Assembly: GCA_030633305.1 (NCBI GenBank)
Contig: DAOVTB010000001.1
Span: 7,258-71,257, forward strand
Length of the DNA: 64,000 nucleotides
DNA from: Candidatus Muiribacteriota bacterium
GTDB taxonomy: Bacteria; Muiribacteriota; DAOVTB01
Direction of reading: 5' to 3'
Part shown: piece by piece, positions 48,510 through 64,000 of the stretch
Layout of the letters: each line of letters opens with the position of its first letter
Numbering within the stretch: position 1 is the first letter of the stretch
Program-made: the position numbers and the translations under genes
Notes under the pieces: model-generated
The model's database searches: none
Told to the model about the DNA's origin: nothing
The model's input: the letters and a program-made list of their open reading frames with translations, nothing else

Positions 48510-51500
48510 ATGCATTTTGCTAAGAAAATTATAATATTTGTACTATTATTCACATTTACCAGTGGTATTTTTTCTCCGGTATTGTTTTGTGAAAACACTC
48601 AGAGTACTTATGATATAGCTGCAGAACGAAAAGGATATCAAAATCTATATTTTAAACAGATTGCTGCTGAAAAAAACCAACCACTTGATTTATATAAACA
48701 ATGGTATTTATTCGGAAAAGGGCACTTCCCATTTGGAACTAAAACTGCAAACTTTCTAGATACTTCTGTTACAGTCTTTAAATATGTACATGATCCTAAA
48801 ACATATTTTAATGCGGGACAGGAATACAATCATTATAAGAAGTTGTTTGGTAGTGTTTTTGACATTATTACACTTGTAGATAAAACAAAACTTAGAAGAG
48901 TTACTACATATTTAAGAGAGTATAGCAACTCTTTCTTAGAAACTGCAACAATTGAAAGAATTACAGATTGTGATGGAACCAAATTATTTTCCTGGATAGC
49001 AGATGCAATGGGAAAAAAAATTGGTAAAACAATCCGCAAATGTTATAAAACAGGTTTAGAAAAACCAACAATACAAGCATATGAATATATGATTAAAGTT
49101 GCTGAAAATCCAAAGGTGCTACGTTGGGTTGCAAATTTACTATATATGGATAAATATCTTAATCGATTACCATCTTTTATAAAAAATGTTACTGATACCG
49201 TAAAAAATGTTAAACTTGCAGTTTCAGCCAGATGGGTAAAAATAAGTGTATACCTTAAAACTCCTGCAGTGAAAAAGAAAATTAAAATGGCTTCTGATGG
49301 AATTTCTTTTGTTGCCGAGGCATTAGATGTTATGAGTAATTTTGCTACTCTGCATGAATACGGAAAGGATGAGGCATTTAATACAATAAGTGGTCCAACG
49401 GCTGTATTATCAGGAATAAAATTACTTCTTTTTATTGGTAGTAAAATTGCTGTAACGAAAGTGGTATGCAAAATACTTGATTCTATACTTACAGTAGGAG
49501 AAATGGCTTATGTTTGGATAAGTAAAAAATATACAATTCTTTCATGTCATCAAGCCACACTTGCAGATACCGGTTATACTCAATTCAACACTTTATTTTT
49601 AAAAGTATGGGAACATATTGAATCAAATCGCCATAGATTAAAAAATTTTTCAAAACGCGTATTAAATGATTTAAACATAACTACTTATCGAAAAAAGTCA
49701 AATACTGAATATGCTTTTGATATCGATAAATTTAGAGATGCTAAATTTCTTGTTCAGAAAGAACTGACTATACTTTACGATGATATGGTAAGTCGAAAAT
49801 ATGGTTCAACAAATAATACTCCTAATTATCCTTTAAAGAAACCCCTCTATCGTGCAATGGCTTCCATGATTAAAAATATTCCTTTAGAAAATACAATGAC
49901 TGCTGCACAAATAGAAATTAAGAATAAAATCAAAGCTCAAATCTGTATTGCTGGTTTCTACCAAGCAAATATGCTTTCAGGTTCGGTTGACCACTATATA
50001 AAAGACAAAAATGTACTTAAATTAGACGATGCTGTACCTTGGTATGATTTCTTTTCATGGACTGAAGGAGGAATGGCAAGAAGTAATTTCTTAAGGAGAA
50101 ATACTGAATTTAAATCTTTACATTTCAAACTATTTAGACAGGATGCATACAAAATTTTAAGTCGTTTTGATAAATTTAGAGTAAAGCTTAAAGCCGATCT
50201 AAATTCATCTACTTCACCTTCCACCCAAATTTCAATTTTTAATATGGGCTTTCATTTCCATATTTTTGAATATGAAGTGCTACTGAAAAAATTTATGAAA
50301 TGGGATATTAGCATCGTTCAATTTGCCAATAGATTACGAATGTTTTTTAATCTTTGTGATGATATAAAATTACATAATGAACTGGTCAAACATGCCCGAG
50401 ATCAAATCACTAAAATGATAACTTCATGGGATTTTGGAACTGTTGGTTATAGCACCAATTACATTAGTAGTCATAAAAAATATAGAACTCCAACTGAACT
50501 TCAGATTATGTTCGAAAGAATAATCAGATCAACCTGCTTCAAGATTGCTAAAGAAATTCAAAGTACCCTTGAATTTAAAAAGATTTCTCTTACATATGAT
50601 GTCGCTGAGGATAATATGAGACAGTATGAAGAAGATGCTATAAATACACTTTTTAGTAATAAAAATGCTATTTTTGATCTTCTTACAACTTCAGAAACAG
50701 AAAATGATTCATGGTTTTTTTCATCAAATGGAATACAAAAAGTTAAGGGATTGGAACTAGCTCCAGTTAGCAGAAAACAAAAAATAAATATTCCATCTAT
50801 TCTTTTGGGTTACTTGGCTGAGTTTGAAGTAATGCGCAAATCTTTTCATAATATTTGTTCTGCTTATGATATTCTTTGTGCCAATCGTGAAGCATTAATT
50901 GTCAGCACAGAAAGTTTTATTAATAATGAATTGTGGTTTCCAAAGGGAAGCACGGAAAAACCTTTAATGTTAGAAAATATGGAGATCTATACTCGTTATG
51001 TAAAATTGGAATTAAAAAAATATTTAGAGGCCGCTCAACTCTGTATGGATAATGAAAGTAGCAGTTCTCTCAGAGCACAATACAAAAGTATAATGAAAAA
51101 AGGTAAAAAAATCCAAACAGAATTGTTCATCAAACAAGGAAAATTATTTACTGATGATGTAAATAAAAAAGTGATATGGCTTGATAAAATAAAAAAGACT
51201 CTTTTTAATAAAATCACTTCCCTAAATGGAAAAATTGAACACTTTTTTATCTTTTCAGTTGATAATATTGCATCAAGGCAGAAAATTGATTATCCAAATG
51301 TAATGCTTTATCCTCCTATATCCATCGATTTATACGGAGACTATACTTTTTCAAATGGTGAATATGGAAAGCCCGCCCAGGATATAATAAAAACATCATT
51401 ACGCCTTAAATTAAATATCCCTGATGAGAACTTCACATTTGCTCCTCCAGAATCATCTGGTGAATATAATTGGAAAGTTACTAAACAACGTCACAATTTT

Positions 51501-51593
51501 TTCAATGCTAACAGCTCTCCAATTTTTCTTATAATCGAAAAAATTTCTTTAAAAAATACCAAACCAAGTTATTTAATTCACATGGTTTATTAA
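48510..51593 (+). CDS. Large hypothetical secreted protein (1027 aa), member of the duplicated module
   Basis: AGGAG RBS 8 nt upstream. Signal peptide. No known domain. Its C-terminus YLIHMVY resembles the partial paralog at the window end (YKVHLVH). Confidence 0.55.
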   Translation: MHFAKKIIIFVLLFTFTSGIFSPVLFCENTQSTYDIAAERKGYQNLYFKQIAAEKNQPLDLYKQWYLFGKGHFPFGTKTANFLDTSVTVFKYVHDPKTYFNAGQEYNHYKKLFGSVFDIITLVDKTKLRRVTTYLREYSNSFLETATIERITDCDGTKLFSWIADAMGKKIGKTIRKCYKTGLEKPTIQAYEYMIKVAENPKVLRWVANLLYMDKYLNRLPSFIKNVTDTVKNVKLAVSARWVKISVYLKTPAVKKKIKMASDGISFVAEALDVMSNFATLHEYGKDEAFNTISGPTAVLSGIKLLLFIGSKIAVTKVVCKILDSILTVGEMAYVWISKKYTILSCHQATLADTGYTQFNTLFLKVWEHIESNRHRLKNFSKRVLNDLNITTYRKKSNTEYAFDIDKFRDAKFLVQKELTILYDDMVSRKYGSTNNTPNYPLKKPLYRAMASMIKNIPLENTMTAAQIEIKNKIKAQICIAGFYQANMLSGSVDHYIKDKNVLKLDDAVPWYDFFSWTEGGMARSNFLRRNTEFKSLHFKLFRQDAYKILSRFDKFRVKLKADLNSSTSPSTQISIFNMGFHFHIFEYEVLLKKFMKWDISIVQFANRLRMFFNLCDDIKLHNELVKHARDQITKMITSWDFGTVGYSTNYISSHKKYRTPTELQIMFERIIRSTCFKIAKEIQSTLEFKKISLTYDVAEDNMRQYEEDAINTLFSNKNAIFDLLTTSETENDSWFFSSNGIQKVKGLELAPVSRKQKINIPSILLGYLAEFEVMRKSFHNICSAYDILCANREALIVSTESFINNELWFPKGSTEKPLMLENMEIYTRYVKLELKKYLEAAQLCMDNESSSSLRAQYKSIMKKGKKIQTELFIKQGKLFTDDVNKKVIWLDKIKKTLFNKITSLNGKIEHFFIFSVDNIASRQKIDYPNVMLYPPISIDLYGDYTFSNGEYGKPAQDIIKTSLRLKLNIPDENFTFAPPESSGEYNWKVTKQRHNFFNANSSPIFLIIEKISLKNTKPSYLIHMVY

Positions 51594-51598
51594 GGATA

Positions 51599-52708
51599 AT
51601 GAGATTTGATATGAATAATTTTAAAAAAATTACCTTAACCATCTTAATTTTAATTTTTATCGCTCCAATCATTTATTCCTTGAATCTATCGAATATATAT
51701 AAGCAAAGACTCAGCATTGAAAAAGATAAACCTGTATTATCTAATGCCGCGGCAAAGTTTTTTTTCATCAAGGGAGAAATCGATACTGCTGAAAAAATAT
51801 TAAAATCAAATCTTGGAATTCATCCTGATGATATCGATAGTCTGTTTCTAATGGCCGCAATAAGCGCCAAACAGAGGAAATATAAAAGAGCAAAGGTCAT
51901 GTTACATCTTCTTCTAAAAAAAGATGCCTTAAACAATGGATATTTAGATCTTCTAATTTACGTTCTCGATAACATGGGAAATAAAAAACTCCTGAATAAA
52001 TATAAACAGTTGCTTGCTAGAAAAACAGGTGAAAAAGTAGATAAAATAAAAAAGAAAAATCTTAATTCAATTGTTAGAATTGCTTCTGCGACGAGTTTAT
52101 TGAAAAATATTCAGATGAATAAACTGAAAAAGATGAAAAAAGACAAAGAATCAATGTTTTTTAAAAAAAGTAAAGTACCTGTAGAAAAACAAGATGAATT
52201 AGCACAGAAACTTGCTGATGAAACCCAGGAGCTTCTTAAGGACAATGGCTTTACAGGAAGAGATTTTGATAAAAGTTATAAAAATATGAAGGAACTTTTA
52301 ACCAAGGCACCTGATTCAAAATTAGCACAATTGGTACATTGGAAAATCCATTATTTCTATTTTGGTTTAACTGATAATGGAAATACAGATTGGATTCAGC
52401 TACAAGCAGCACTTGAAAGTTACCTGTTAAAATATCCTGATGATGAAGTCCACAGGATGGAAGCCTATGATAAACTGGCAATGGCTTCAAATAAACTTGA
52501 AGACTGGAATACATTACTTTATTATACAGAACTTTATCTTGAAAAAGACCCTGTTCATTATCCAATACTTTATAGTAAAGCGACAGCATTACTAAAACTT
52601 GGGCAAATAGAAGATAGTGTAGAAATAATGGAAAATATCATAAAAGACTCTCCTAATAGCGTTCAATCCTTCCTTGCTAGAGAAGATCTGGAAGAACTTG
52701 GTTACTAA
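51599..52708 (+). CDS. Secreted TPR-like helical-repeat protein (paralog of 62862-63950)
   Basis: 369 aa, about 60% identical along its length to the 362-aa protein at 62862-63950 (e.g. DSLFLMAA, IASATSLLK, AQKLADETQELLKD, LAMAS..LEDWNTLLYY, LEKDPVHYP). Confidence 0.55.
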   Translation: MRFDMNNFKKITLTILILIFIAPIIYSLNLSNIYKQRLSIEKDKPVLSNAAAKFFFIKGEIDTAEKILKSNLGIHPDDIDSLFLMAAISAKQRKYKRAKVMLHLLLKKDALNNGYLDLLIYVLDNMGNKKLLNKYKQLLARKTGEKVDKIKKKNLNSIVRIASATSLLKNIQMNKLKKMKKDKESMFFKKSKVPVEKQDELAQKLADETQELLKDNGFTGRDFDKSYKNMKELLTKAPDSKLAQLVHWKIHYFYFGLTDNGNTDWIQLQAALESYLLKYPDDEVHRMEAYDKLAMASNKLEDWNTLLYYTELYLEKDPVHYPILYSKATALLKLGQIEDSVEIMENIIKDSPNSVQSFLAREDLEELGY

Positions 52709-52712
52709 ATTC

Positions 52713-53591
52713 ATGTATAGAATATTTTTAATACTTTTTGTTATTGTTTTTATAACTACCATAACAGGCTGTTGTGGCCCTTCTGGAAAATCAAAGGATA
52801 TTGGAAAAAAGTTTTTTATAAATATCATAAGAAAAAAATATGATGCCTCATATAAACTAATTGCAAAAGATGATGAACTGAATATATCTTTAGAAGAATT
52901 TTCATTTTTTTTCAGAGATCTAAGAAATGTACTAAAATTTATAAGCGTAAAATCTTCTTCTGAAAGAGAAGTTGATGATAGAAAGCTCAATGAAAAATTT
53001 AAACAGGTAAAATCAGTTTGTTTGAAAATGACTGGTATAACTTCAGTAGAATTAAGTTCCTCTACCGGTCTCATGAAACTAGAATTAAACTTCTTTGTTG
53101 TTGAAGAAAAGGGTGAATGGAAAGTACTTTTTTCCTCTGTCTTTGATTTTAACAATTATTATTCAACCATTCTTTTAAGCAATGCAATTCTCTACAGCAG
53201 TGGGGACAAAAAAGATTTAAAAAAAGCTTTGGAATTCTGTGATAAAGCCCTAAAAATGAACCCTAATAACGATGTGGTATATTCCACTTATATGATGATA
53301 TATATGGATAAAAAAAAATATACTCAAGCGTATAAGTATGGAAAAAAACATTATGATAAGTTAACATCAAGTCAAAAATATTTTGAAAGACATCGATTTC
53401 CTGGTAATACGATTAGGGAGAACATATATAAATGCAAAGTTCAACGTTCTAATCTTCTCGTTATGTTAAGTACTATACAAATTAAAAAAGGCCACAAGAA
53501 AAAGGCGAAAAATTTTATAAAACTTGCCCTTAAATTGAATCCACTAAACCAAAAAGCAAAAGAATTTTACTATACTTATTTAAGAAAATGA
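52713..53591 (+). CDS. Lipoprotein with a C-terminal TPR region (start moved to ATG at 52713)
   Basis: MYRIFLILFVIVFITTITGC gives a lipoprotein signal with an ITGC lipobox. The ORF-track start at 52674 is a non-ATG codon overlapping the upstream gene. C-terminal TPR-like motifs are present (LEFCDKALKMNPNN). Confidence 0.5.
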   Translation: MYRIFLILFVIVFITTITGCCGPSGKSKDIGKKFFINIIRKKYDASYKLIAKDDELNISLEEFSFFFRDLRNVLKFISVKSSSEREVDDRKLNEKFKQVKSVCLKMTGITSVELSSSTGLMKLELNFFVVEEKGEWKVLFSSVFDFNNYYSTILLSNAILYSSGDKKDLKKALEFCDKALKMNPNNDVVYSTYMMIYMDKKKYTQAYKYGKKHYDKLTSSQKYFERHRFPGNTIRENIYKCKVQRSNLLVMLSTIQIKKGHKKKAKNFIKLALKLNPLNQKAKEFYYTYLRK

Positions 53592-53601
53592 AATCGAATA
53601 T

Positions 53602-56600
53602 TTACTGATTGTCTCTTTTTTTCTTAACTTCTTGAAATATTTTATTTTCCATGTCATTTTCAGCGATCCAGATTCTTTTAATTGGATCCCATAAGACTTC
53701 ATCTTTTTTCAGATGTTCCAGGACAGTTGTTAGAGATTTAAACGCTTTTTTAAATCTGTTTTCATCAAGATATTTTTTGACAAGAAAAAATTCTCCTCTG
53801 AAATATTCCTCTTCCATCGCGGAAATTGATTTGAAGTAAATTTTTTTCTTATTTTCTGAAGATGTATCAAGTCTGGAAATTTTTTTCCAGTATTTTGCCA
53901 CATTCCCTATATCTACTTTTCCATCAGAAAACTCAAAAACAACTGTTTTCTCTTCCTTTTTTACTAAATCAGTTGTTTTCTTCAATTCATTTACCTCTGG
54001 CATTGAAACGTTATCAGAAACAATATCTTTATCCACTTCCTTACTGGAAAAAAAAATATTCCCGAAGAAAAGAATGACTAGAATCAGAAAAACACCTGCA
54101 CCAGCCATCTTGATCTTTTCGGTTTTATCTAAAGTGTCAATAGTCTTAACTGGTTTTTTTTCTGGCGGAGGAATCTTTTTAACTGATTTTTTTTCTTTTA
54201 TTTCTTTGGGTTGAACATTTGGAGCTATCTTTTTAATCTTATTATTTATATCACCATGACTATTTTTTGAATCAATATACTTATCCATGAGCTCTTTAGG
54301 AATAAATGTTAAAAGAAATTTTTCAAGATCTGATTCTACAAATTCGTCTGCTATCTTATGACTATAAATATGATTTTGAAACATCAGCTTCATTATTGCT
54401 ACTCTTACTCGATCAGAAGAATCATTTATTTTTTTACAAATTTCATGGAAAAACAAAGGTTCTTCCACTTTTATAAATGACTCTATAGTATTAGCAACAA
54501 CACGAGAATTTTGATGAGAAAGACATTTTTTTGCCATTTCAATCACTTTTTTATTCTTATAAAATTTACTGAAAAGCATCGTCAATTTTGACAGTAAAAT
54601 AGTATTTGTAGTCGTTTCCATAAAAGATAATACTGCAGGGATGTGTTGCTGTTCTAATCCTGACATCAAATGATTAATTTTTTTCTCTATAATTGATGGA
54701 TCAGTACAATCTGAAACAGAGACTAATAATTCAACGGGATTTTCTTCCGGCACCTCATCCGAAACAACTGATTCTACGGTGTCTTTAGCTGCGGTTTTAG
54801 ATATTTTTTTCAACGGCAGTTTATAACCATATTTTTCCTGAAGAAAGGCAACTACCGAACTTGCCTGTACGATGACCTCAGTATTAGAATCATGAATCAA
54901 AAAAGCGGCCAGTTTAAAAAGAGAATGACTACCAATATTTTTTACTGCATTTAATGCAGTTAATTTTACTTCTTTTGCTGGTGAACACAACATTGTTCGA
55001 ATCTTTTTTTCAACTTCTTTTGCAGAAAATTCATTCAATATAATTGAAGCCTTTGCAACAATTTCCCTGTTATCATCATACAGTAATGGAAAAAGTTCAT
55101 CTACCCAGTTACTGCAATCATGATGTGATAATAACCCTAGAGCAGCAAGTCGTATTTGAAAATTCTCATTACTGGTATTCTTAATCAAAAATGAAACGGG
55201 ACCTTTGACTATGATAGCAAGTGATTTCAATAACTCTATTCTAACTTCTATATTTACTGTCTTATCTTCAAATAAGGCCTTAAACCTTGGCAAATGAGTC
55301 TCATCAACCATAAAACTCAAAATTTTAATCGCTTTTGTCTTTTCCGTAACAGTCGTTATTGGATCAGTAATAATATTCATTTGTTCATCAATCAATTTTT
55401 CAGGTAATTTACCTGTATCAACCAGATGAGAAACGACTATCTCATGAGTTGATTTTTTTTCGGTTTTTCTTTCCTGAAGTTTCTTTGCCGATTCACGAAT
55501 TTCATTATTCCTGTCTTTAACAAGAACATCTACATATGGAGCCAGTTGTTGATCAGAAATTTTCTGAAGGATACGCAAAGCAGATTTTTTCTTCCATAAT
55601 TTCTTACTTTTAACAGCTATTTCCAAAAATTTATTGACACTGCTTTTTTCATTATTTTTCCAGAGGACAAGAGCCGCACAGGATGCAATTCTATGGTGTT
55701 TATGTTTTATAAACATAAGCATAATCTCACGAACTTCACTGCTAGTGCTGTATCCAAGTCCTTCAATACAGTTTGAAACAACTCTGCTGTCTTCATGAGT
55801 CAGGTGTTCTATGAGTTGAGCTAAGTATTTATCATTCCCATATTTGCCAAGATATTTTACATATGCTGATATGAGAAATGGATTTTCTTCCGTTTTAAGA
55901 TTGTTAGATATAACTTCAAGAAAACCGGGATTATCTAAATTATTAATAACTTTTAAAACAGATAATTTATCTTGAAAATTAGTTCCACTTTCAAGTATTT
56001 CATGGAATTTAATTTGAATATCTTCTGTCGGTGCTTCAAAATGAGAATCTATATCTTCATCGATTTGTTTTAAATTACTCAGGGCAGCTTTCGCATTGCT
56101 ACTTATGCTTTCATTAGGATCTTCAATGAGATGATTCATTATCCCTTTAAGTTCATTTGCCTTGATATATTTACAAATAACCGAAGTTATTATTCTTAAC
56201 GGTGTATCTATTGATTCCGCAAGCTTCTTTAAAACTGAAACAACTACAATCTTGGAATGTTTCCATAGAAATAATGATGCCGCAAATAGATAAGCTTCAT
56301 TTGTTGAATCCTTATAAGTATTGACAATTTCATCAAAATAATCGGTATTTTTCATGCAGACAAGGGCCAATAATACTTTTTCCCTGTCCTCAGACCCAGA
56401 TTCCATCTTTTGACGTAATAATGGCATTATTTTAGATGGAAAACCCTTTGCAAGAGCATCAGCAAATCTTAAGAGTATTTTTGCGTTTTCCTCCATAAAA
56501 TATAGATTCAAAGCTCTGTTTACAGGTATAATGAGATTATCAGAGTCATGTTTAATGGAAGCGAGAACTTTAAGTTTATCATCAATGCATAACCGTGAGA

Positions 56601-56838
56601 ATTCGTCATCAAGCTTTCTTGCAGATTCAATACTTTCATTTTTCTGTTTGAGAAGGTCTAATTTTTTTAAAATTTTTTCAGACAGAGAACGAATCAATGG
56701 ACTGTTTTCAAAATTAACAAGTTGCTTTATCCAGTCTTCACATTCCAACCGTGGATTATTGTAAAGGACCATTAATCCATTGACAATTTCATCCTGTTTC
56801 TTGCTATGTAACATAGAATTCAAGTTTTCAAATTTCAT
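53602..56838 (-). CDS. HEAT-repeat protein with a single C-terminal-proximal TM and a short extracytoplasmic domain (paralog A)
   Basis: 1078 aa. HEAT/PBS-lyase-like repeats run along its length (…DSRVVSNCIEGLGY…). TM helix MAGAGVFLILVILFFGNIFF. Conserved C-terminal motif EEYFRGEFFLVKK...LWDP.KRIWI. Confidence 0.6.
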   Translation of the reverse strand: MKFENLNSMLHSKKQDEIVNGLMVLYNNPRLECEDWIKQLVNFENSPLIRSLSEKILKKLDLLKQKNESIESARKLDDEFSRLCIDDKLKVLASIKHDSDNLIIPVNRALNLYFMEENAKILLRFADALAKGFPSKIMPLLRQKMESGSEDREKVLLALVCMKNTDYFDEIVNTYKDSTNEAYLFAASLFLWKHSKIVVVSVLKKLAESIDTPLRIITSVICKYIKANELKGIMNHLIEDPNESISSNAKAALSNLKQIDEDIDSHFEAPTEDIQIKFHEILESGTNFQDKLSVLKVINNLDNPGFLEVISNNLKTEENPFLISAYVKYLGKYGNDKYLAQLIEHLTHEDSRVVSNCIEGLGYSTSSEVREIMLMFIKHKHHRIASCAALVLWKNNEKSSVNKFLEIAVKSKKLWKKKSALRILQKISDQQLAPYVDVLVKDRNNEIRESAKKLQERKTEKKSTHEIVVSHLVDTGKLPEKLIDEQMNIITDPITTVTEKTKAIKILSFMVDETHLPRFKALFEDKTVNIEVRIELLKSLAIIVKGPVSFLIKNTSNENFQIRLAALGLLSHHDCSNWVDELFPLLYDDNREIVAKASIILNEFSAKEVEKKIRTMLCSPAKEVKLTALNAVKNIGSHSLFKLAAFLIHDSNTEVIVQASSVVAFLQEKYGYKLPLKKISKTAAKDTVESVVSDEVPEENPVELLVSVSDCTDPSIIEKKINHLMSGLEQQHIPAVLSFMETTTNTILLSKLTMLFSKFYKNKKVIEMAKKCLSHQNSRVVANTIESFIKVEEPLFFHEICKKINDSSDRVRVAIMKLMFQNHIYSHKIADEFVESDLEKFLLTFIPKELMDKYIDSKNSHGDINNKIKKIAPNVQPKEIKEKKSVKKIPPPEKKPVKTIDTLDKTEKIKMAGAGVFLILVILFFGNIFFSSKEVDKDIVSDNVSMPEVNELKKTTDLVKKEEKTVVFEFSDGKVDIGNVAKYWKKISRLDTSSENKKKIYFKSISAMEEEYFRGEFFLVKKYLDENRFKKAFKSLTTVLEHLKKDEVLWDPIKRIWIAENDMENKIFQEVKKKRDNQ

Positions 56839-56877: not shown

Positions 56878-57168
56878 TCAATAACTATGTGCATTTGAAG
56901 AAATCATTGCTATAAATAACGCAAAAGCCGCACCAAAACATATTAACATCAAAGCCACTGCAGTAATTTTATTGGTCATAAATTGAGCCTGCGTCTGATC
57001 TTCTTCTTTTTTCCAATTCAAAAAAACAAATTCAAAAAGATCAAATGCCATATGAAGAAGTGCTCCAAGACAACCCGGTTCTTCGCTTAGATCTACAATT
57101 GTTTCCTGTTCTTTTTTTGCATCAGTTTCCTGTTTTTTATTTAATTCTGTATCTTGTTTTTTGTCCAT
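56878..57168 (-). CDS. Small membrane protein (C-terminal TM), first gene of the HEAT-A operon
   Basis: 96 aa with an acidic/Lys-rich N-terminus and a C-terminal helix ITAVALMLICFGAAFALFIAMI. Confidence 0.4.
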   Translation of the reverse strand: MDKKQDTELNKKQETDAKKEQETIVDLSEEPGCLGALLHMAFDLFEFVFLNWKKEEDQTQAQFMTNKITAVALMLICFGAAFALFIAMISSNAHSY

Positions 57169-57387: not shown

Positions 57388-59118
57388 ATGACAACGGTAG
57401 AAAAGTTATACTATAAGGTTGGTGCTGCGATTATAATTTTTACCTTTACAACATTTATGGGTTGGAAAGAAATGCAGGATGAACGAAATGCTAAACATGC
57501 TAACCATTTTGCAGATACAAATTTTTCAATCATGTCTACTCGTTATTATAAAAAATGTGCACTCCTTGCTAAACAAAATAAACTTGATGAATTAATAAAT
57601 TATTCTACTAAGGCAATTGAAGAAATAGAGTATAAGGACTCCAGTAAATCAAAATTTATTTTTGATTTTTTACAATTCAGAGGTAACGCCTATTTCAAAA
57701 AAAACAAGTTAAAAGAAGCGGCCCCAGATTTTCAACGTGTTTGTATCAATAATATGAAATCTCCTTGCATGAAGTATAAATATCTTTTTGATAAATATGG
57801 TTCCATTAAATTACAAATAGAATTTCGTAAAAAAGAGGCTGAGTTTCTAAAAAAACAGGCTAGTTTACTAAAAAAAATAAAACCGCCTCCAACTGAATCA
57901 GATAAAATAGCTTCGTTAAGAAACAAAGTTCATTACAATGTAAAAAAAGGAATCACTTCTTTTAAACTTGGTGATCTTAAAGCTACCAAAAAATTTTTTA
58001 AAAAAGCCATGAAGCTTGATCCAAAAAATCCATATCCCCATGTCAAATTAGGCTTTATAAAAAGTAGTATTGGGGAAAATGAGGTGGCCATAAAATATTT
58101 TGATCAGGCAATTAAACTAGATCCTAAATCTCATACAGCACATTATGGAAAAAGTCAGACTTTTTTAAAAGAGAAGAAGTATGAGGACGCTATAAGTTCC
58201 ATTGATACGGCTTATTCTATTAAAAAGAAAGGAACATACAAATTTGCTCGCGCAAAAATCTATTGGTCTTCCGGGAAATATGAAAAAGCAATTGAAGAAT
58301 TAAAAAAAATAAAAGTTAAAGGAAAATCTGCAGCATCTGTTAATTCCTATATTGGTGATTGTTTCATGAATATTGGTGATTTTGATAAAGGAAAAGAAAT
58401 ACTCGAAAACAGCATTAAAGTAAAAAGTAGAAATACTGATGCATATCTTTTTTTAGCACAGGGATATATCAAGGCTAACAAAGAAAAAAAAGCAATTGAA
58501 TATTATAAAAAGGCTGCCAAAAAAGGTATTAATAAATTTGATGCAAATTATTTTTTGGGAAAATATGAAGAAAAAAAAGAAAAAATGAGTCTTGCAATGG
58601 ATTATTATCAAAAAGCTTTGAATATTAATCCTAATAATTATGACTTAAATCTTAAACTCAGTGCTTGGTATTTTCACGAAAATTTATACAGGAAAGCATT
58701 AAAATGTAGTTTAATTATTGCAAAAGCAGAACCCAATAATTGGAAAATACGTTTTAAGATTGCAATATGTAAAAAGTTTCTAGACAATGTTGATGGTGCA
58801 CTTGAGGATTTTGAAAAATTACTTAAATCAACGAATGAACCCAAAGAAAAAAGTGATTGCTATGAAGAAATGGCCCTCATCTTTTTTGATGATAAAGACT
58901 GGAGAACTTCTAACCAATACTTTGCTTTGGCTGAACAAGAAAATCCTGGAGATATAGGTAGGCTATATAATTATGGACTAACTTCTATCGTTTTAAGAAA
59001 AGACAGGGAAGCAATTAATATATTTCATAAACTTAATCAGTTCGATAAGAAAGAGTCTACAGAATTTATTGAAAGATTCAAAAAACTTATGGATAAATAT
59101 AATATAGTTATTGAATAA
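57388..59118 (+). CDS. TPR-repeat protein
   Basis: 576 aa. RBS GGGAGA. N-terminal hydrophobic segment. Many canonical TPR units (…AIKYFDQAIKLDPKSHTAHYGKSQTF…). Confidence 0.6.
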   Translation: MTTVEKLYYKVGAAIIIFTFTTFMGWKEMQDERNAKHANHFADTNFSIMSTRYYKKCALLAKQNKLDELINYSTKAIEEIEYKDSSKSKFIFDFLQFRGNAYFKKNKLKEAAPDFQRVCINNMKSPCMKYKYLFDKYGSIKLQIEFRKKEAEFLKKQASLLKKIKPPPTESDKIASLRNKVHYNVKKGITSFKLGDLKATKKFFKKAMKLDPKNPYPHVKLGFIKSSIGENEVAIKYFDQAIKLDPKSHTAHYGKSQTFLKEKKYEDAISSIDTAYSIKKKGTYKFARAKIYWSSGKYEKAIEELKKIKVKGKSAASVNSYIGDCFMNIGDFDKGKEILENSIKVKSRNTDAYLFLAQGYIKANKEKKAIEYYKKAAKKGINKFDANYFLGKYEEKKEKMSLAMDYYQKALNINPNNYDLNLKLSAWYFHENLYRKALKCSLIIAKAEPNNWKIRFKIAICKKFLDNVDGALEDFEKLLKSTNEPKEKSDCYEEMALIFFDDKDWRTSNQYFALAEQENPGDIGRLYNYGLTSIVLRKDREAINIFHKLNQFDKKESTEFIERFKKLMDKYNIVIE

Positions 59119-59120
59119 AA

Positions 59121-59148
59121 AACAGGGAGCAAGATTGCTCCCTGTTTT
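59121..59148. terminator. Bidirectional rho-independent terminator between convergent genes
   Basis: AAAAAACAGGGAGCAAGATTGCTCCCTGTTTTTAG: a perfect 10-bp stem (CAGGGAGCAA/TTGCTCCCTG) with an A-run upstream and a T-run downstream. Confidence 0.65.
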
Positions 59149-59175
59149 TAGTCTCTTCGTTTAAAATTAACAGAT

Positions 59176-59430
59176 TTACTTTATACCTTCAACAATAAGT
59201 CTACATGAAATTGGTTGTCCTATAATAATATAAAAATTTTTACGTACAATTCTCATATCACTAAAACCAAGCCCCTGAAGACGTGCAACACCCGCTTTTA
59301 TCGCTGCATTATAAGCTGCAGTTCTTGTTCGGCCATTACCCCAGGCAATAAATTGTTGACCAGGCCATGCTTGTGCCGCAACTGTAAAAACAAATAAAAC
59401 CAACACTGTTACCAATAATACTTTTTTCAT
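59176..59430 (-). CDS. Small secreted protein
   Basis: 84 aa with signal peptide MKKVLLVTVLVLFVFTVAAQA and a mature part of about 63 aa. Confidence 0.45.
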   Translation of the reverse strand: MKKVLLVTVLVLFVFTVAAQAWPGQQFIAWGNGRTRTAAYNAAIKAGVARLQGLGFSDMRIVRKNFYIIIGQPISCRLIVEGIK

Positions 59431-59616
59431 AATTTAAATCCTCCGTTTTTTTAATCTCGGTTTGGTTAATGCATGTTTTGTGCCAAAATGAAAAAGCCCT
59501 TAATAACAAGGATTATAAGAAATCGAATTATTGAACCATAAAAAAATATTATGTTTTTCTTTATGGCTGTAAAAAAATTTTATCCAACGAAACTATATAT
59601 TTGGTATACTGATATT

Positions 59617-62600
59617 ATGAGTTTTCAAAATATAACAACATTATTAAATAGTCCTACCCAGGACGACATAGTAAAAGCCCTGATGGTACTTTACAATAAT
59701 CCAAGAACTGAATTTGAAGAAAAAGTAACTTCTCTTTCAGGAAATAGCAATCCACTAGTGAGATCATTGTCAGAAAAAGTATTAAAAAAAATAAGTATTT
59801 TAAAAAGTAAACTGAATCAAGTGGAATCAGGACTTGAACTGGATAAAAATTTCAATAAACTTAATACAGATAAGAAGTTAAAAATTCTCACTGCGCTTAA
59901 ACTTGGGCATGCAAAAATAAGTGTGTCAATCGACCTTGCAATTGATCTTTTTTTTAAGGAAAATAATTCAAAATTATTGTATTCATTTGCTGAAACTCTT
60001 GCAAAAATAAGTCCATCGGAAGTTTTATCCAATATTCGACAAATAATAAATTCTAATTCAAAACATCGAGACAAAGCATTGTTGATACTAGTCTGTATGA
60101 AGAAAACCGAATACCTGACTGAAATCATTGAAGAATACAAAAAATCCAGGAATGAAGCATTTCTTATCGCAGCATCACTTTTTTTGTGGACACATTCAAA
60201 AATTGTTGTTGTCTCTGTTATAAAAGAGCTTGCTGAATCAACTCAAACTCCTATGAGGATTATTGCTTCTTTAATTTGTAAAATCCTGAAGGCTAATGAA
60301 TTAAAAGGAATAATAGTTCACTTGACTGAGGATATGAATGAGGCAATAAAAAACAATGCCAAAGCAGCGCTTTTAAATCTAAAACAGGCTGATGTCGAAT
60401 TCATTGAAATTACTCCTCCTTCTGAAGACATATACAGTAAATTCAGAGAAGTCCTGGTTTACGGTACTGATTTTCAAGACAAACTTTCTGTCATGAAAGT
60501 TATCGATAATCTAGGCCGCACTGATTTTCTAGATATTATTTCAGATAAACTCTCAAGCGAAGAAAACCCTTTTCTAATTTCAGCCTATGTAAAATATCTG
60601 GGTAAATATGGAAAAGACGATTATTTCGATCAGATTGTTCCACATATCGACCACTCTGATGCCAGAGTCGTTGCCAACTGCATCGAAGGACTTGGATACT
60701 GCAGTGGCGGTGAGGTCCGTGAAATAATGCTTAAATTCATTAAGCATAAGCATCATCGGATAGCTTCATGTGCAGCTGTTATTCTTTGGAAAAGCAGGGA
60801 ACAGGGAATTGTTCATAAGTTCCTCCAGATTGCTTCTGATAGTAAAAAACTCTGGAAAAGGAAATCAGCACTCCACATACTTGAAAAAATCCATGATGAA
60901 GCACTTGATCCATACGTAGACACATTAAAAAAAGATAAAAACAATGAAATTCGCGAAAGTATAAAATCCCTTTTATTACGAAGGCAAAAAGATACTTCGG
61001 CAAAGACTGAAGTAATAGATCATATTCTTTCAACTGGAAAAATGCCTGAAAATCTGATTCAGGATAAATTGAAAATATTACAGGATAATAATTCGGAACT
61101 TGAAGAAAAGATAAAAGCGGCGAAATTATTGAGTTTTATGGCTACAAGCGAACAAAATGAAAGTTTGAAAATGATTTTCTATAATCCTGATGTGAATATT
61201 CGAGTAAGACTTGAACTTCTTACTACACTTTCATTGCTTGAAAAGGATCCTTTGATTTTTCTTGTCGACAATACCAGAAATGAAGATGCTCAGATTAGAG
61301 TTTTATGCCTGGAACATCTAAGGAATCACGATTGTAGTAACTGGATTGATGACCTTTTCCCACTACTTTATGATGAAAATCAGGATGTAGTTTCAAAAGC
61401 ATCTGTCCTTTTAAATGATCACGTTCCTGAAAAAGTAGGAAAAAAAATAAGGACTATGGTCTGTTCGCCAGAACCTGAAATGAAACTTTCTGCACTAAGT
61501 GCTATTCACAATATTGGAACAAAAGAACTTTTTGATCTGGCAACATATCTTATCCAGGATCCAAGTACTGAAATAATTGTCCGGGCCAGTTCCGTTATTT
61601 CAGATCTACAAGATAAATTCGGTTATAAAATATCCAAGCGGGAAACAGAAACACATAATGGAAAAATTGAAACAGAAAAAGTTGAAAAACCCGTAGAGAA
61701 TCCAATTGAGATTTTAAGATCCGTCTCTTCAATTACTGATCCAAAAGTTATTGAAGACAGGATCAATACTATGATAGAAAGCATCAAGGAACAGCATTTG
61801 CCAAGTATTTTATCATTTATGGAAACCACTACCAATACAGTGCTTCTATCAAAACTGACTGTGATTTTCGGATTATTTTCAACTAATCAGAAAATTATTG
61901 CTGCTGCCGAAAAATGTCTTGATCATCCTGATCAGCGCGTAGTTTCAAATACAATTGAATCTCTTGCAACAGCAAAAAAGCCTGTTCTATTTGAAAAAAT
62001 TTTTCAGAAGATACCCGATGCCTCTGATCGTATCAGAGTTGCCATAATGAAACTTATTTTCACAAATCCAGAATACAGCCAAAAGGTACTAAGTGATTTT
62101 ATTGAGGACGATTATGAAAAGTTTGTCCTTTCAATCGCACCAAAAGAACTGATGAATAAATATTCAAAATCTGCGAATGTTCAGTCGGAGATCACTGAAA
62201 AAGTTAAAAAAATCACCAAAAAATCTGAAAGTAAACCTAAAAAGAAACCTGTAAAAAAGACTGTTATTAAAAAGAAAATTGCTGCTCCAAATCCATTACA
62301 ATCAATTATTAAAAACCCGGCAATACAGAAAATGATCGCTGGAGGTGTCCTTCTACTTGTACTGTTCTTTGTTTCTAATATGATGTTTACGTCTTCACAG
62401 ATCGATGAAGACACTGTTGAAGATGACATTGCAATGCCGAATGTTACTCCAACTGTAAAAAAATCTAAACCTCCGGTAAAAAAAGCACCTGTAAAAAAAA
62501 TAAAGAAAACAAGACCTAAGAAGAAAAAATATAAACTTGATATAATTTTTCCGAAAGATCCTGAAAATTTTGATTTAGCAGTAAGATGCTGGGAAAAAAT

Positions 62601-62868
62601 CAACTCAAAATCCTATTCGGTAAAAAAACGACAATATGCATATCTAAAGCTAATCAAATTGATTGAGAAAAAATATTTCAGAGGTGAATTTTTCCTCGTG
62701 AAAAAAGACATAGAATCAAAAAAATTCGATATTGCTAAAACACATTTCCTGGAAGCTCTGGAAAATATTGAAAATGATCAGGCTTTATGGGATCCTACCA
62801 AAGGAATATGGATTGAACGACAAGACATGGAAGATAAAATACTACAGGAAGTAAAAAAAACTCAATAG
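59617..62868 (+). CDS. HEAT-repeat protein with a single TM (paralog B of 53602-56838). Start moved to MSFQNITTLL
   Basis: Aligns from residue 1 with paralog A (MSFQNITTLLNSPTQDDIVKALMVLYNNPR vs MKFENLNSMLHSKKQDEIVNGLMVLYNNPR). TM helix IAGGVLLLVLFFVSNMMF. It has the same C-terminal KKYFRGEFFLVKK...LWDP motif. TGGTATACT (extended -10-like) lies immediately upstream. Confidence 0.6.
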   Translation: MSFQNITTLLNSPTQDDIVKALMVLYNNPRTEFEEKVTSLSGNSNPLVRSLSEKVLKKISILKSKLNQVESGLELDKNFNKLNTDKKLKILTALKLGHAKISVSIDLAIDLFFKENNSKLLYSFAETLAKISPSEVLSNIRQIINSNSKHRDKALLILVCMKKTEYLTEIIEEYKKSRNEAFLIAASLFLWTHSKIVVVSVIKELAESTQTPMRIIASLICKILKANELKGIIVHLTEDMNEAIKNNAKAALLNLKQADVEFIEITPPSEDIYSKFREVLVYGTDFQDKLSVMKVIDNLGRTDFLDIISDKLSSEENPFLISAYVKYLGKYGKDDYFDQIVPHIDHSDARVVANCIEGLGYCSGGEVREIMLKFIKHKHHRIASCAAVILWKSREQGIVHKFLQIASDSKKLWKRKSALHILEKIHDEALDPYVDTLKKDKNNEIRESIKSLLLRRQKDTSAKTEVIDHILSTGKMPENLIQDKLKILQDNNSELEEKIKAAKLLSFMATSEQNESLKMIFYNPDVNIRVRLELLTTLSLLEKDPLIFLVDNTRNEDAQIRVLCLEHLRNHDCSNWIDDLFPLLYDENQDVVSKASVLLNDHVPEKVGKKIRTMVCSPEPEMKLSALSAIHNIGTKELFDLATYLIQDPSTEIIVRASSVISDLQDKFGYKISKRETETHNGKIETEKVEKPVENPIEILRSVSSITDPKVIEDRINTMIESIKEQHLPSILSFMETTTNTVLLSKLTVIFGLFSTNQKIIAAAEKCLDHPDQRVVSNTIESLATAKKPVLFEKIFQKIPDASDRIRVAIMKLIFTNPEYSQKVLSDFIEDDYEKFVLSIAPKELMNKYSKSANVQSEITEKVKKITKKSESKPKKKPVKKTVIKKKIAAPNPLQSIIKNPAIQKMIAGGVLLLVLFFVSNMMFTSSQIDEDTVEDDIAMPNVTPTVKKSKPPVKKAPVKKIKKTRPKKKKYKLDIIFPKDPENFDLAVRCWEKINSKSYSVKKRQYAYLKLIKLIEKKYFRGEFFLVKKDIESKKFDIAKTHFLEALENIENDQALWDPTKGIWIERQDMEDKILQEVKKTQ

Positions 62869-63950
62869 CCTAGGGTTTTGAGTTCATCCTTTGCAAGAAA
62901 ATACTGAACGCTATGCGGTGATTCCTTTATTATCTTTTCCATGATCTCGACTCCACGTTCTACTTCTCCAAGTTTTATCAAAGCATTTCCCTGATTCAAA
63001 AGCATCGGATAATGAACTGGATCCTTTTCCAGATAAAGTTCAGCATAATACAACATGGTATTCCAGTCTTTTAACTCCTCAGAAGCCATAGCAAGCTTAT
63101 CATAAGCTTCTTTCTTATGGATTTCATCATCTGGAAATTTCGTAAGATAGCTTTCAAGACAGGTCTGCACCTGTAACCAGTCTTCATTTCCATCATCAGT
63201 TAATCCGAAAAAATAATAATGCATCTTCCAGTGTATGATCTGGGCAGTTTTTGTATCTGGAGCTTTCAACAGTATTTCTTTCATATTTTTGAAGATTTTA
63301 TCATGATCTCGAACTATAAAACCCCTATCCTTTAAAAGATCTTCTGTTTCATCAGCTAGTTTTTCAGCAATTTTTTCCTGTTCAGGAAGTTTAAGTTTGC
63401 TTTTAGCGAAATAAACAGAGCCAACTTCTTTTTTCATATTCTGAATTTTACTTTTCTGAAGTACTTTAAGCAAACTTGTTGCTGAAGCAACTTTCATTAT
63501 TGAATTTACTGTTTTCTTTTTTGTGACAGTATTTACATTTCCAGAAGTTGAGGAAAGAATTTCATTATATTTTGCCAGAAGTTTCTTATCTCCCATTTTA
63601 TTCAGAGTAATTATAAGAAGCTCCAGATAACTTTTATTACCAGGATTTTTTTTCAATAACAAATGAAGAATATCCTTTGCCTGCTTAAACTTTTTCTGAT
63701 TTAAACTAACTGCGGCCATCAAAAAAAGACTGTCTGTATCTTCAGGATGCCGTTTTAAATTCTCTTCAAGTATTTTGGATGCTTTATCAATTTTTCCAGA
63801 AAGAAAAAAATGTCTTGCTGCTGCATTGCATAAAACAGGTTGATCCCAATTATTTTTAAGTCTTTTATCATAAATTCTGGCAAGATCAATAGAATAAACT
63901 GTAGATATCAACAGAATAAAAGCAATCAGTAAAGTGAATATTTTTTTCAT
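62862..63950 (-). CDS. Secreted TPR-like helical-repeat protein (paralog of 51599-52708)
   Basis: 362 aa with a signal peptide. It overlaps the stop of the convergent HEAT gene by 7 nt. Confidence 0.55.
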   Translation of the reverse strand: MKKIFTLLIAFILLISTVYSIDLARIYDKRLKNNWDQPVLCNAAARHFFLSGKIDKASKILEENLKRHPEDTDSLFLMAAVSLNQKKFKQAKDILHLLLKKNPGNKSYLELLIITLNKMGDKKLLAKYNEILSSTSGNVNTVTKKKTVNSIMKVASATSLLKVLQKSKIQNMKKEVGSVYFAKSKLKLPEQEKIAEKLADETEDLLKDRGFIVRDHDKIFKNMKEILLKAPDTKTAQIIHWKMHYYFFGLTDDGNEDWLQVQTCLESYLTKFPDDEIHKKEAYDKLAMASEELKDWNTMLYYAELYLEKDPVHYPMLLNQGNALIKLGEVERGVEIMEKIIKESPHSVQYFLAKDELKTLGY

Positions 63951-64000
63951 TAATGAACCAGATGCACTTTATATTTCTTTTTCATATCGGTAGAAAATGT
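63951..64000 (-). CDS. Partial CDS (C-terminal 16 codons): probable paralog of the 1027-aa protein
   Basis: The minus-strand frame is open to the window edge: ...TFSTDMKKKYKVHLVH*. Its TAA overlaps the ATG of the downstream gene (TAATG). Compare ...KPSYLIHMVY* immediately upstream of the paralogous TPR-like gene at 51599. Confidence 0.35.

What the first reader, a model, noticed from the sequence alone, without database searches (positions are those of the whole stretch)
48510..64000. Inverted duplication of a three-gene module: large secreted protein, secreted TPR-like protein and HEAT-repeat single-TM protein
Three gene pairs in this span are clear paralogs:
- 51599-52708 and 62862-63950, about 60% identical TPR-like secreted proteins.
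- 53602-56838 and 59617-62868, HEAT-repeat proteins with the same single TM and a C-terminal FRGEFFLVKK...LWDP domain.
- The 1027-aa protein at 48510-51593 and the partial ORF at 63951-64000, whose C-termini match (YLIHMVY* and YKVHLVH*).

In both copies the large protein gene is followed directly by the TPR-like gene, and the pair is convergent with the HEAT gene. The two copies are inverted relative to each other around a TPR gene and a small secreted protein at 57388-59430. A conserved, duplicated neighbourhood of otherwise uncharacterised proteins suggests a functional system.

The predicted topology is a cytoplasmic HEAT scaffold with one TM and a short outside domain, plus two periplasmic or secreted partners. 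That is consistent with a trans-envelope signalling or assembly module. None of the proteins has a catalytic motif I can recognise.
Basis: seen in the sequence. Interest (0 to 1): 0.75.

Follow-up and report, generated by a model that had tools for sequence, protein, structure and literature searches.

The report
Duplicated orphan envelope module beside pseudopilin genes
An uncultured cold-seep bacterium (candidate phylum Muirbacteria) carries two inverted copies of a three-gene set found almost nowhere else, and its position next to pseudopilin genes suggests, without proving, that it is a new accessory part of a pilus-like machine.

Summary
All three gene pairs are true paralogs:
- TPR-like proteins: 58% identical.
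- HEAT/single-TM proteins: 50% identical.
- Large proteins: 39% identical over their full length, once the second copy was recovered past the window edge.

The families are extremely narrow. An exhaustive HMMER search of 1.84 billion representative proteins found only three members of the large-protein family. That protein has no Pfam, NCBIfam, PDB, PADLOC or PHROG match.

The new information is context. In one relative the large protein and the TPR-like protein are the first genes of a tight operon with three pseudopilin-type genes. That operon is convergent with the HEAT gene, and a GspF-like platform gene lies on the HEAT gene's other side. In the window, the same pseudopilin operon lies 1.8 kb upstream of copy 1.

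My best reading (confidence about 0.35) is an accessory module of a type IV filament or pseudopilus machine:
- a large helical non-pilin partner, analogous to PilY1 but not homologous to it;
- a periplasmic TPR chaperone or adaptor;
- a HEAT-repeat inner-membrane scaffold.

The function is inferred from context only. AlphaFold failed on the large protein.

The parts
48510..51593 (+). big1: a 1027-aa orphan protein with an N-terminal signal-like segment. It is predicted to be mostly alpha-helical with a small C-terminal beta-containing region. The extreme C-terminus, [KS]-Y-[KL]-x-H-[LM]-V-[YH], is conserved.
   Evidence: ORF. No Pfam, NCBIfam, PDB, PADLOC or PHROG match. Only 3 family members among 1.84 billion representatives. 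The AF2 model has pLDDT 32.8, so only its secondary structure is indicative. C-terminal motif in 4 sequences.
51599..52708 (+). TPRl1: a 369-aa periplasmic protein (signal peptide, no lipobox) with an N-terminal and a C-terminal TPR block. It starts 5 nt after big1 ends.
   Evidence: Pfam TPR_19 at 38.9 bits (cut-off 25), plus TPR_17, TPR_6 and TPR_14 above their cut-offs. 58% identical to TPRl2. Hydrophobic N-terminus.
52713..53591 (+). TPR lipoprotein of about 292 aa from the ATG at 52713 (signal MYRIFLILFVIVFITTITG|C). It is present only in copy 1, between TPRl1 and HEAT1.
   Evidence: ORF. Pfam TPR_2, TPR_8 and TPR_19. Matches phrog_20642 (unknown function) at E=1.3e-19 over nearly its full length. 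Junction sequence.
53602..56838 (-). HEAT1: 1078 aa. It has about 850 aa of cytoplasmic HEAT solenoid, a Lys/Pro-rich linker, one TM segment (912-930) and a periplasmic helical domain of about 110 aa ending in a beta-hairpin (YFRGEFF...LWDP).
   Evidence: Pfam HEAT_2 at 71.5 bits. TM segment. AF2 mean pLDDT 71.8, with solenoid blocks at 80-92 and the C-terminal domain around 70-84. Foldseek returns only generic HEAT solenoids (CAND1, karyopherins, PP2A-A) at TM-scores of 0.14-0.22.
56878..57168 (-). 96-aa small membrane protein directly upstream of HEAT1 on the same strand. Copy 2 has no counterpart.
   Evidence: No family match.
57388..59118 (+). 576-aa multi-TPR protein at the axis of the inverted duplication.
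   Evidence: Strong Pfam TPR hits.
59176..59430 (-). 84-aa small secreted protein at the axis.
   Evidence: No family match.
59617..62868 (+). HEAT2: 1083 aa from the ATG at 59617 (an upstream ATG at 59551 would give 1105 aa). It is the paralog of HEAT1, with a TM segment at 906-924.
62862..63950 (-). TPRl2: 362 aa, the paralog of TPRl1. Its 3' end overlaps HEAT2 by 7 nt, and its start overlaps the big2 stop codon by 1 nt.
63950..64000 (-). Last 16 codons plus the stop codon of big2. The full gene (1034 aa) is at L001:3545-6649.
44630..46747 (-). 705-aa protein, the first gene of the pseudopilin operon. Before its hydrophobic segment it has an 'R-G|MAVPLVV' N-terminus without Glu5, which resembles GspK/PilX only by eye. 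It matches no family.
   Evidence: 34% identical to the L005 667-aa protein, which sits directly after the TPR-like gene there.
44193..44630 (-). 145-aa prepilin-type protein (KKRA|FSMTE), GspI/ComGE-like. It is translationally coupled to the 705-aa gene.
   Evidence: Pfam N_methyl at 25.2 bits (cut-off 21.2). TIGR02532 at 21.4 bits (cut-off 16.3). GspI at 26.8 bits and ComGE at 29.3 bits, both below their cut-offs.
43648..44196 (-). 182-aa prepilin-type protein (KPRA|FTMVE), weakly ComGF-like. It overlaps the preceding gene by 4 nt.
   Evidence: N_methyl at 17.6 bits, below the cut-off. ComGF at 26.6 bits, below the cut-off. Ortholog in L005.

Best explanation
The triad is a lineage-specific accessory module of a type IV filament (pseudopilus, T2SS/T4P-like) machine in a Muirbacteria-affiliated bacterium.

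Proposed mechanism (inferred, not shown):
- The large helical protein is exported by Sec to the periplasm. There it associates with the complex formed by the three pseudopilin-type proteins (705, 145 and 182 aa), as a non-pilin tip or priming partner. This is functionally analogous to PilY1 with minor pilins, without homology to it.
- Its conserved C-terminal strand is a candidate docking element.
- The co-translated periplasmic TPR-like protein acts as its chaperone or adaptor.
- The HEAT protein is an inner-membrane scaffold. Its small periplasmic helical domain contacts the TPR-like or large protein. Its roughly 850-aa cytoplasmic solenoid recruits cytoplasmic parts of the machine.
- The two, or with L006 three, diverged copies would give alternative versions of the module, as with the paralogous minor-pilin/PilY1 clusters of Myxococcus.

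Shown: paralogy, conservation of the neighbourhood, domain content, topology signals, and adjacency to pseudopilin genes.
Inferred: every protein-protein contact and the functional role.
For: 1. In L005 the genes big > TPR-like > 667 aa > 154-aa N_methyl pseudopilin > 170-aa pseudopilin are co-directional, with gaps or overlaps of 24 nt or less. This operon is convergent with the HEAT gene (4-nt overlap). A GspF-like gene (TIGR02120, E=5e-21, below cut-off) lies divergent upstream of the HEAT gene.
2. In the window the orthologous 705-145-182 operon (33-36% identity) lies 1.8 kb from big1.
3. None of the other L005 flanking genes has a homolog in the window. Only the module and the pseudopilins are shared, which argues against plain background synteny.
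4. The triad stays together despite rearrangement. In L007 the order is TPR-like > big, convergent with the HEAT gene.
5. A second, non-homologous operon in the window (15811-25860) also joins a prepilin peptidase and pseudopilins to a secreted TPR protein and a HEAT-TM-TPR protein.
6. Topology: signal-like N-termini on big and TPR-like, and N-in/C-out for HEAT.
7. Precedent: minor pilins plus the large non-pilin PilY1 are co-encoded in three paralogous clusters and form a priming/tip complex (PMC7541494). A cluster-encoded periplasmic accessory protein supports PilY1 (PMC8833165, abstract).
Against: - No homology links any triad protein to a known pilus or T2SS component.
- The large protein has no PilY1 domain and is predicted to be helical rather than a beta-propeller.
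- The link to pseudopilins rests on two lineages only.
- The third HEAT/TPR-like locus (L006) has no pseudopilin gene and no large protein within 10 kb.
- No GspE, GspD or GspF gene lies in the window. The 705-aa protein matches no GspK or PilX model.
- The structure of the large protein could not be predicted (pLDDT 32.8).
- The source MAG has 14.6% estimated contamination.
Confidence: 0.35

Rival explanations
1. The module is a stand-alone trans-envelope scaffold or signalling unit, unrelated to pseudopili. The HEAT solenoid organises cytoplasmic partners. Its periplasmic domain reads out the TPR-like and large proteins.
For: The HEAT plus TPR-like pair exists without pseudopilins or a large protein in L006. 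The window holds no core pilus or T2SS motor genes. The genome is generally rich in TPR and HEAT proteins.
Against: The operon fusion with pseudopilin genes in L005 and the retained adjacency in the window would then be coincidence. No sensor or output domain of any kind was found.
Confidence: 0.25
2. The large protein is a cargo exported by a T2SS-like pseudopilus, not a structural partner. The TPR-like protein is its periplasmic holding chaperone.
For: The context is the same as for the best explanation. It has a Sec-type signal and no membrane anchor after it. From general knowledge, T2SS substrates are sometimes encoded beside the machinery.
Against: It does not explain a co-duplicated 1078-aa inner-membrane HEAT partner for each copy. 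No enzymatic or adhesin domain was found. Conservation is strongest in an internal core at residues 580-640 and at the extreme C-terminus, which fits a docking role at least as well.
Confidence: 0.15
3. The genes have no joint function. These are lineage-specific expansions of repeat proteins whose adjacency reflects recent common descent.
For: Only a handful of closely related uncultured genomes carry the genes. All four scans of public genome (GTDB species representatives) and metagenome (JGI) contigs found nothing.
Against: The proteins are only 27-50% identical between loci, and gene order and flanks have been reshuffled, yet the genes stay adjacent. All three were co-duplicated and all copies remain intact.
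Confidence: 0.1
4. The module is a secreted toxin or effector with a chaperone and an immunity or regulatory partner, or an anti-phage defence module.
For: It has a large orphan secreted protein, duplicated and diverging faster (39%) than its neighbours (50-58%).
Against: There is no toxin, nuclease, peptidase or defence-family match. The only PADLOC hit is a generic HEAT-ARM model at 23.5 bits. There is no variable C-terminal toxin-like tip, since the C-terminus is conserved. Nothing related was found in viral contigs.
Confidence: 0.05

Closest known systems
Minor pilin / PilY1 priming and tip complex of type IVa pili (fimU-pilVWXY1 clusters; three paralogous clusters in Myxococcus xanthus, PMC7541494)
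   Same: A protein of about 1000 aa with a Sec signal is co-encoded with a small set of prepilin-type proteins. There are multiple diverged paralogous copies per genome. An accessory periplasmic protein is encoded alongside, as with TfcP (PMC8833165).
   Different: There is no sequence or domain similarity to PilY1: no PilY1/PilC beta-propeller and no vWA domain. The large protein is predicted to be helical (low confidence). There are three rather than four or five pilin-like genes. The PilY1 system has no counterpart to the HEAT-repeat inner-membrane protein.
T2SS pseudopilus tip GspK-GspI-GspJ
   Same: The operon has three genes: one large protein lacking Glu5 and two small prepilin-type proteins with Glu5. 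The 145-aa protein gives weak GspI and ComGE matches. A GspF-like gene is adjacent in L005.
   Different: All specific matches are below the curated cut-offs. The 705-aa protein is twice the size of GspK and matches no model. The order is K-I-J. The residue at -1 of the cleavage motif is Ala, not Gly. No GspC, D, E, L or M gene is nearby.
Periplasmic or lipoprotein TPR factors of pilus and secretion machines (PilF/PilW/Tgl pilotins; TPR chaperones such as LcrH/SycD)
   Same: A small all-TPR protein is encoded beside its presumed client in a filament-related locus.
   Different: PilW (TIGR02521) scores 22.8 bits against a cut-off of 154, and the T3SS chaperone models are likewise far below cut-off. 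TPRl has no lipobox, unlike pilotins. It is periplasmic, unlike T3SS chaperones. The matches are generic TPR similarity.
Eukaryote-type HEAT solenoid scaffolds (CAND1, karyopherin-beta, PP2A A subunit)
   Same: A long HEAT solenoid, the best structural matches of the AF2 model.
   Different: TM-scores are only 0.14-0.22, which reflects repeat-level similarity alone. The window protein adds a TM helix and a periplasmic domain. No functional inference is warranted.

Membership tests
PilY1 / PilC family (Pfam Neisseria_PilC beta-propeller) | C-terminal PilY1/PilC beta-propeller domain detectable by profile | tested here: not met
   The 1027-aa protein has no Pfam or NCBIfam hit at E<=0.01. A search of its separate C-terminal 112 aa at E<=5 also found nothing.
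PilY1 / PilC family | Co-encoded with minor pilin genes and carrying a Sec-type signal | tested here: met
   In L005 it shares an operon with three pseudopilin-type genes. In the window the two are adjacent. The N-terminus is hydrophobic.
Prepilin-type (type IV pilin-like) proteins | N-terminal cleavage/methylation motif with Glu5 followed by a hydrophobic helix (PF07963 / TIGR02532) | tested here: met
   The 145-aa protein scores 25.2 bits on PF07963 (cut-off 21.2) and 21.4 bits on TIGR02532 (cut-off 16.3). The 182-aa protein has the motif by eye (KPRA|FTMVE) but scores only 17.6 bits, below the cut-off.
GspK / PilX large minor pseudopilin | Match to T2SSK or PilX_N profiles | tested here: not met
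   The 705-aa protein has no Pfam, NCBIfam or PDB match even at E<=5-10. The only similarity is an N-terminus without Glu5, seen by eye.
TPR repeat proteins | TPR profile matches above the curated cut-off | tested here: met
   TPR_19, TPR_17, TPR_6 and TPR_14 are above their cut-offs in both the 369-aa and 362-aa proteins.
PilF/PilW/Tgl pilotin | Equivalog-level match and a lipoprotein signal | tested here: not met
   TIGR02521 scores 22.8 and 21.0 bits against a cut-off of 154. Tgl gave no hit for TPRl. The signal peptide has no Cys lipobox.
HEAT repeat proteins | HEAT profile match above the cut-off and a solenoid fold | tested here: met
   HEAT_2 scores 71.5 and 62.7 bits against a cut-off of 27.7. 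The AF2 model shows paired-helix repeats with pLDDT 80-92. Foldseek matches are HEAT solenoids.
Known anti-phage defence systems (PADLOC) and phage protein families (PHROGs) | Profile match of the triad proteins | tested here: not met
   The only PADLOC hit is a generic HEAT-ARM_XIII model at 23.5 bits. The three triad proteins have no PHROG match. No relatives were found in IMG/VR contigs.
Type IV filament machine (T2SS/T4P) as a whole | Presence of the ATPase (GspE/PilB), platform (GspF/PilC), secretin and prepilin peptidase in the same genome | tested here: inconclusive
   A prepilin peptidase lies at 25036-25860. A GspF-like gene sits next to the HEAT gene in L005 only. No ATPase or secretin lies in the 64-kb window or in the fetched flanks. 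The whole MAG could not be searched.

The most novel reading that the evidence does not exclude
Muirbacteria use a previously unknown kind of type IV filament accessory set. An orphan helical protein of about 1030 aa replaces PilY1-type tip or priming proteins. It is handled by a dedicated periplasmic TPR chaperone. It is coupled through a HEAT-repeat bitopic inner-membrane adaptor to the cytoplasmic side of the machine. Such an architecture, a HEAT solenoid as a filament-machine component, has no described counterpart.
Probability: 0.2. Interest if true: 0.65.

Novelty: new variant of a known kind. Interest (0 to 1): 0.45.

Why it matters
If the link to pseudopili holds, it would add a non-homologous solution to a general problem: how type IV filaments are primed and capped, and how periplasmic tip partners are coupled to the cytoplasm. 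It would also give a first functional handle on three orphan protein families in a candidate phylum with no cultured members. If the link does not hold, the module is still a clean, conserved, co-duplicated set of envelope proteins of unknown function. That is useful as a target for structural genomics, but it does not change current understanding.

Tried and rejected
- Word-indexed homolog searches found only self, paralogs and one or two relatives. The search with the large protein even missed its own paralog, so I relied on the exhaustive HMMER search instead.
- Scans with the HEAT alignment found nothing in genome contigs or metagenome contigs. A metagenome scan with the large-protein alignment also found nothing.
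- A transketolase scan meant to establish taxonomy found nothing. Taxonomy came instead from the supplement of PMC9357000.
- AF2 on the large protein with a 3-sequence alignment gave pLDDT 32.8. I did not use that model for fold search.
- The fold search of the HEAT model returned only generic solenoids.
- PDB sequence and profile searches for the large protein and the 705-aa protein found nothing meaningful.
- PADLOC, PHROGs and viral-contig scans excluded a defence or phage reading.
- Rfam found no RNA family in the window.
- The promoter and terminator scan did not exceed shuffled controls.
- hhalign of the HEAT family against the 1524-aa HEAT-TM-TPR protein gave only repeat-level similarity, probability 20%.
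- The large protein has no internal repeats.
- A look-up of the first window gene failed. The flank upstream of the window (L008) holds GGDEF and TPR genes, not pilus genes.

Full report
**Observation**

- big1 at 48510-51593(+), 1027 aa
- TPRl1 at 51599-52708(+), 369 aa
- an extra TPR gene at 52674/52713-53591(+)
- HEAT1 at 53602-56838(-), 1078 aa
- a 96-aa gene at 56878-57168(-)
- a 576-aa TPR gene at 57388-59118(+)
- an 84-aa gene at 59176-59430(-)
- HEAT2 at 59617-62868(+), 1083 aa
- TPRl2 at 62862-63950(-), 362 aa
- 16 codons of a further gene at the window edge

Paralogy holds for all three pairs:
- TPRl1 and TPRl2 are 58% identical with no gaps.
- HEAT1 and HEAT2 are 50% identical over 1091 columns.
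- The edge fragment belongs to a 1034-aa gene. I recovered it from a contig that is 99.9% identical to the window (L001:3545-6649). It is 39% identical to big1 from end to end.

DNA-level inverted similarity of 70-74% persists in the best-conserved coding parts. The inverted duplication of a three-gene module is therefore real, and both copies are intact.

**Source**

The proteins carry KAJ27 locus tags of GenBank assembly JAGLFN (GCA_023144555.1). This is MAG RS_1.bin.33 from sample RS_1 at the Site-F cold seep, South China Sea.
- The MAG is 74.7% complete with 14.6% contamination and GC 0.34.
- GTDB-Tk places it only as 'Bacteria; Muirbacteria' (PMC9357000 and its supplements).
- The window has 29-36% GC throughout.
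- Its other genes are chromosomal housekeeping genes: transketolase, an NQR/Rnf-type electron transport complex, radical SAM enzymes and a prepilin peptidase.

**What the proteins are**

*TPR-like and HEAT proteins.* The TPR-like proteins pass the Pfam TPR cut-offs, and the HEAT proteins pass HEAT_2 at 71.5 and 62.7 bits. NCBIfam gives only sub-threshold, generic TPR and HEAT matches.

*Topology.*
- The HEAT proteins have no signal peptide.
- They have one strong hydrophobic segment near residue 920, preceded by a Lys/Pro-rich stretch and followed by an acidic one. This implies N-in/C-out.
- The large and TPR-like proteins have N-terminal signal-like segments without a lipobox.

*HEAT1 model.* AF2 with a 4-sequence alignment gave mean pLDDT 71.8.
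- Five solenoid blocks score pLDDT 80-92.
- The linker around the TM segment is disordered.
- The C-terminal periplasmic domain of about 110 aa has four helices, a beta-hairpin (the LWDP..GIW motif) and a final helix.

Foldseek against the PDB returned only CAND1, karyopherins, SF3B1 and PP2A-A at TM-scores of 0.14-0.22, which is repeat-level similarity.

*The large protein.*
- It has no Pfam, NCBIfam, PADLOC, PHROG or PDB match.
- It has no internal repeats.
- Its AF2 model is unusable at pLDDT 32.8. The model only suggests a mostly helical protein with a small beta-containing C-terminal region.
- Conservation peaks at residues 580-640 (FANRLRMFFNL.DDIK.HNE).
- The extreme C-terminus, [KS]-Y-[KL]-x-H-[LM]-V-[YH], is shared by all four known family members.

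**How rare it is**

- An exhaustive HMMER pass over 1.84 billion representative proteins found three members of the large-protein family: big1, its paralog, and one 31%-identical protein.
- The HEAT family has the paralog plus two others.
- The 705-aa family has one 84%-identical relative, plus the L005 ortholog.
- Pattern scans of GTDB species genomes, JGI metagenomes and IMG/VR found no further loci.

**Is the triad conserved elsewhere?** Yes.

- L007 (GCA_964499945.1) carries TPR-like (363 aa) > big (1031 aa), convergent with the C-terminal end of a HEAT gene. The order of the first two genes is swapped relative to the window.
- L005 (Logan SRR22388293) carries a big C-terminal fragment > TPR-like (363 aa) > 667 aa > 154 aa > 170 aa, convergent with a 1095-aa HEAT gene.
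- L006, another scaffold of the same metagenome, carries a third HEAT paralog. Fragments of that paralog carry KAJ27 locus tags. It is convergent with a 412-aa TPR-like gene and a 199-aa half-length TPR-like gene, but there is no large protein.

The invariant core is therefore HEAT plus TPR-like, and the large protein is present in four of five loci. In every locus the HEAT gene is convergent with the periplasmic-protein operon, with 3' ends abutting or overlapping: a 7-nt overlap, a 4-nt overlap, 1-nt gaps, or 10 nt after the extra lipoprotein gene.

Pairwise identities suggest that the window duplication happened after the split from the L005 and L007 lineages, and that the large protein diverges fastest:
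- TPR-like: 58% within the genome against 46-51% to L005 and L007.
- HEAT: 52% within the genome against 39% to L005.

**The new lead: pseudopilins**

The three L005 genes that follow the TPR-like gene are orthologs (33-36% identity) of the window operon at 43648-46747(-).
- The 145-aa product passes the prepilin N-methylation models and weakly resembles GspI and ComGE.
- The 182-aa product has KPRA|FTMVE and weakly resembles ComGF.
- The 705-aa product has an R-G|MAVPLVV N-terminus without Glu5. This is GspK/PilX-like by eye only, since no model matches it.

The three genes are translationally coupled, with 1-nt and 4-nt overlaps. In L005 a GspF-like platform gene lies divergent from the HEAT gene. 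None of the other L005 flanking genes has a homolog in the window. What the two lineages share is therefore exactly the module plus the pseudopilin operon. A close relative (84% identity) again shows the 705-145-182 operon (L009 and L010).

Independently, the window holds a second operon at 15811-25860(-). It contains a prepilin peptidase, two prepilin-type genes, three unknown genes, a secreted TPR protein (708 aa) and a 1524-aa HEAT-TM-TPR protein. That HEAT protein is not detectably homologous to HEAT1 beyond its repeats. Even so, the same combination of architectures recurs next to filament genes.

**Interpretation**

The best-supported reading is that the triad is an accessory module of a type IV filament or pseudopilus machine:
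- The large protein would be a non-pilin periplasmic or tip partner of the three pseudopilin-type proteins.
- The TPR-like protein would be its periplasmic chaperone or adaptor.
- The HEAT protein would be an inner-membrane scaffold reaching both compartments.

The closest functional precedent is the minor-pilin/PilY1 priming and tip complex. In Myxococcus it is encoded in three paralogous clusters (PMC7541494), one of which includes a periplasmic accessory protein for PilY1 (PMC8833165, abstract). This is an analogy and does not imply family membership: no PilY1, GspK or pilotin model is matched.

I put this reading at about 0.35. The rivals are:
- a stand-alone envelope scaffold, 0.25;
- T2SS-type cargo plus chaperone, 0.15;
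- no joint function, 0.10;
- toxin or defence module, 0.05.

The main weaknesses are these:
- The link rests on two lineages.
- L006 lacks pseudopilins.
- No ATPase or secretin is in view.
- There is no usable structure for the large protein.

**Verdict**

Its functional guess of a trans-envelope module is reasonable. The pseudopilin context sharpens it without proving it.

The families are new and confined to a barely sampled candidate phylum. The likely kind of system, accessory parts of a type IV filament machine, is a known one.

Interest is moderate at 0.45. The module is well defined, conserved and duplicated, and it offers a testable hypothesis. All of the functional evidence so far is contextual.

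Noticed in passing
window 15811-25860 (-): A second tight operon: prepilin peptidase (25036-25860), two prepilin-type genes (24503-25108 and 23919-24542), three proteins with no family match (of which the 207-aa one is the second prepilin-type gene, plus the 301-aa and 133-aa proteins), a secreted TPR protein (708 aa) and a 1524-aa protein built as HEAT, then a TM segment near residue 970, then TPR. The architectural theme matches the flagged module, but there is no detectable homology to it.
   Followed up: partly
window 52674/52713-53591 (+): A TPR lipoprotein (lipobox ITG|C) is inserted only in copy 1, between TPRl1 and HEAT1. It matches phrog_20642 (unknown function) at E=1.3e-19 over almost its whole length, and at 27% it has the lowest GC in the region.
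   Followed up: partly
window 43648-44630 and 23919-25108: All four prepilin-type proteins have Ala or Ser rather than the usual Gly at position -1 of the cleavage motif (KRA|F, PRA|F, KRA|F, RRS|F). Only the 705-aa protein has Gly there.
   Followed up: no
window 51570-51593; L001:6620-6649; L005:14653-14680; L007:4320-4350: The large-protein family ends in a conserved C-terminal motif, [KS]-Y-[KL]-x-H-[LM]-V-[YH]-COOH, preceded by P-x-F-[LMV]-[IL]-[ILV]-E-K. It could be a docking strand or a sorting signal.
   Followed up: partly
L006:10001-21922 (scaffold_23 of the same metagenome): The third HEAT paralog is convergent with a 412-aa TPR-like gene and a 199-aa protein that matches only the N-terminal TPR block. 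Six consecutive signal-peptide proteins (276-484 aa) with no Pfam match follow, and there is no large protein.
   Followed up: partly
window 62862-62868; L005:10554-10557; L006:13270-13272; L007:4350-4352: In every locus the HEAT gene is convergent with its neighbour, with overlapping or abutting stop codons and no room for a terminator. This may allow antisense or transcriptional-interference coupling.
   Followed up: no
window 59176-59430 (-): An 84-aa secreted protein at the axis of the duplication is rich in Ala, Gly and Arg. At 36% it has the highest GC among the genes measured in this region. It matches no family.
   Followed up: no
window 48510-51593 (method note): The word-indexed protein search with big1 returned only big1 itself, although a 39%-identical paralog with long shared words is in the collection. 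Absence of hits from that tool alone would have been misleading.
   Followed up: yes
window 6648-8189 and L008:6553-12093: The neighbourhood is rich in signalling and repeat proteins: an adenylate/guanylate cyclase, a HAMP protein, a GAF-GGDEF protein and a TPR protein of more than 1145 aa just upstream of the window start.
   Followed up: no
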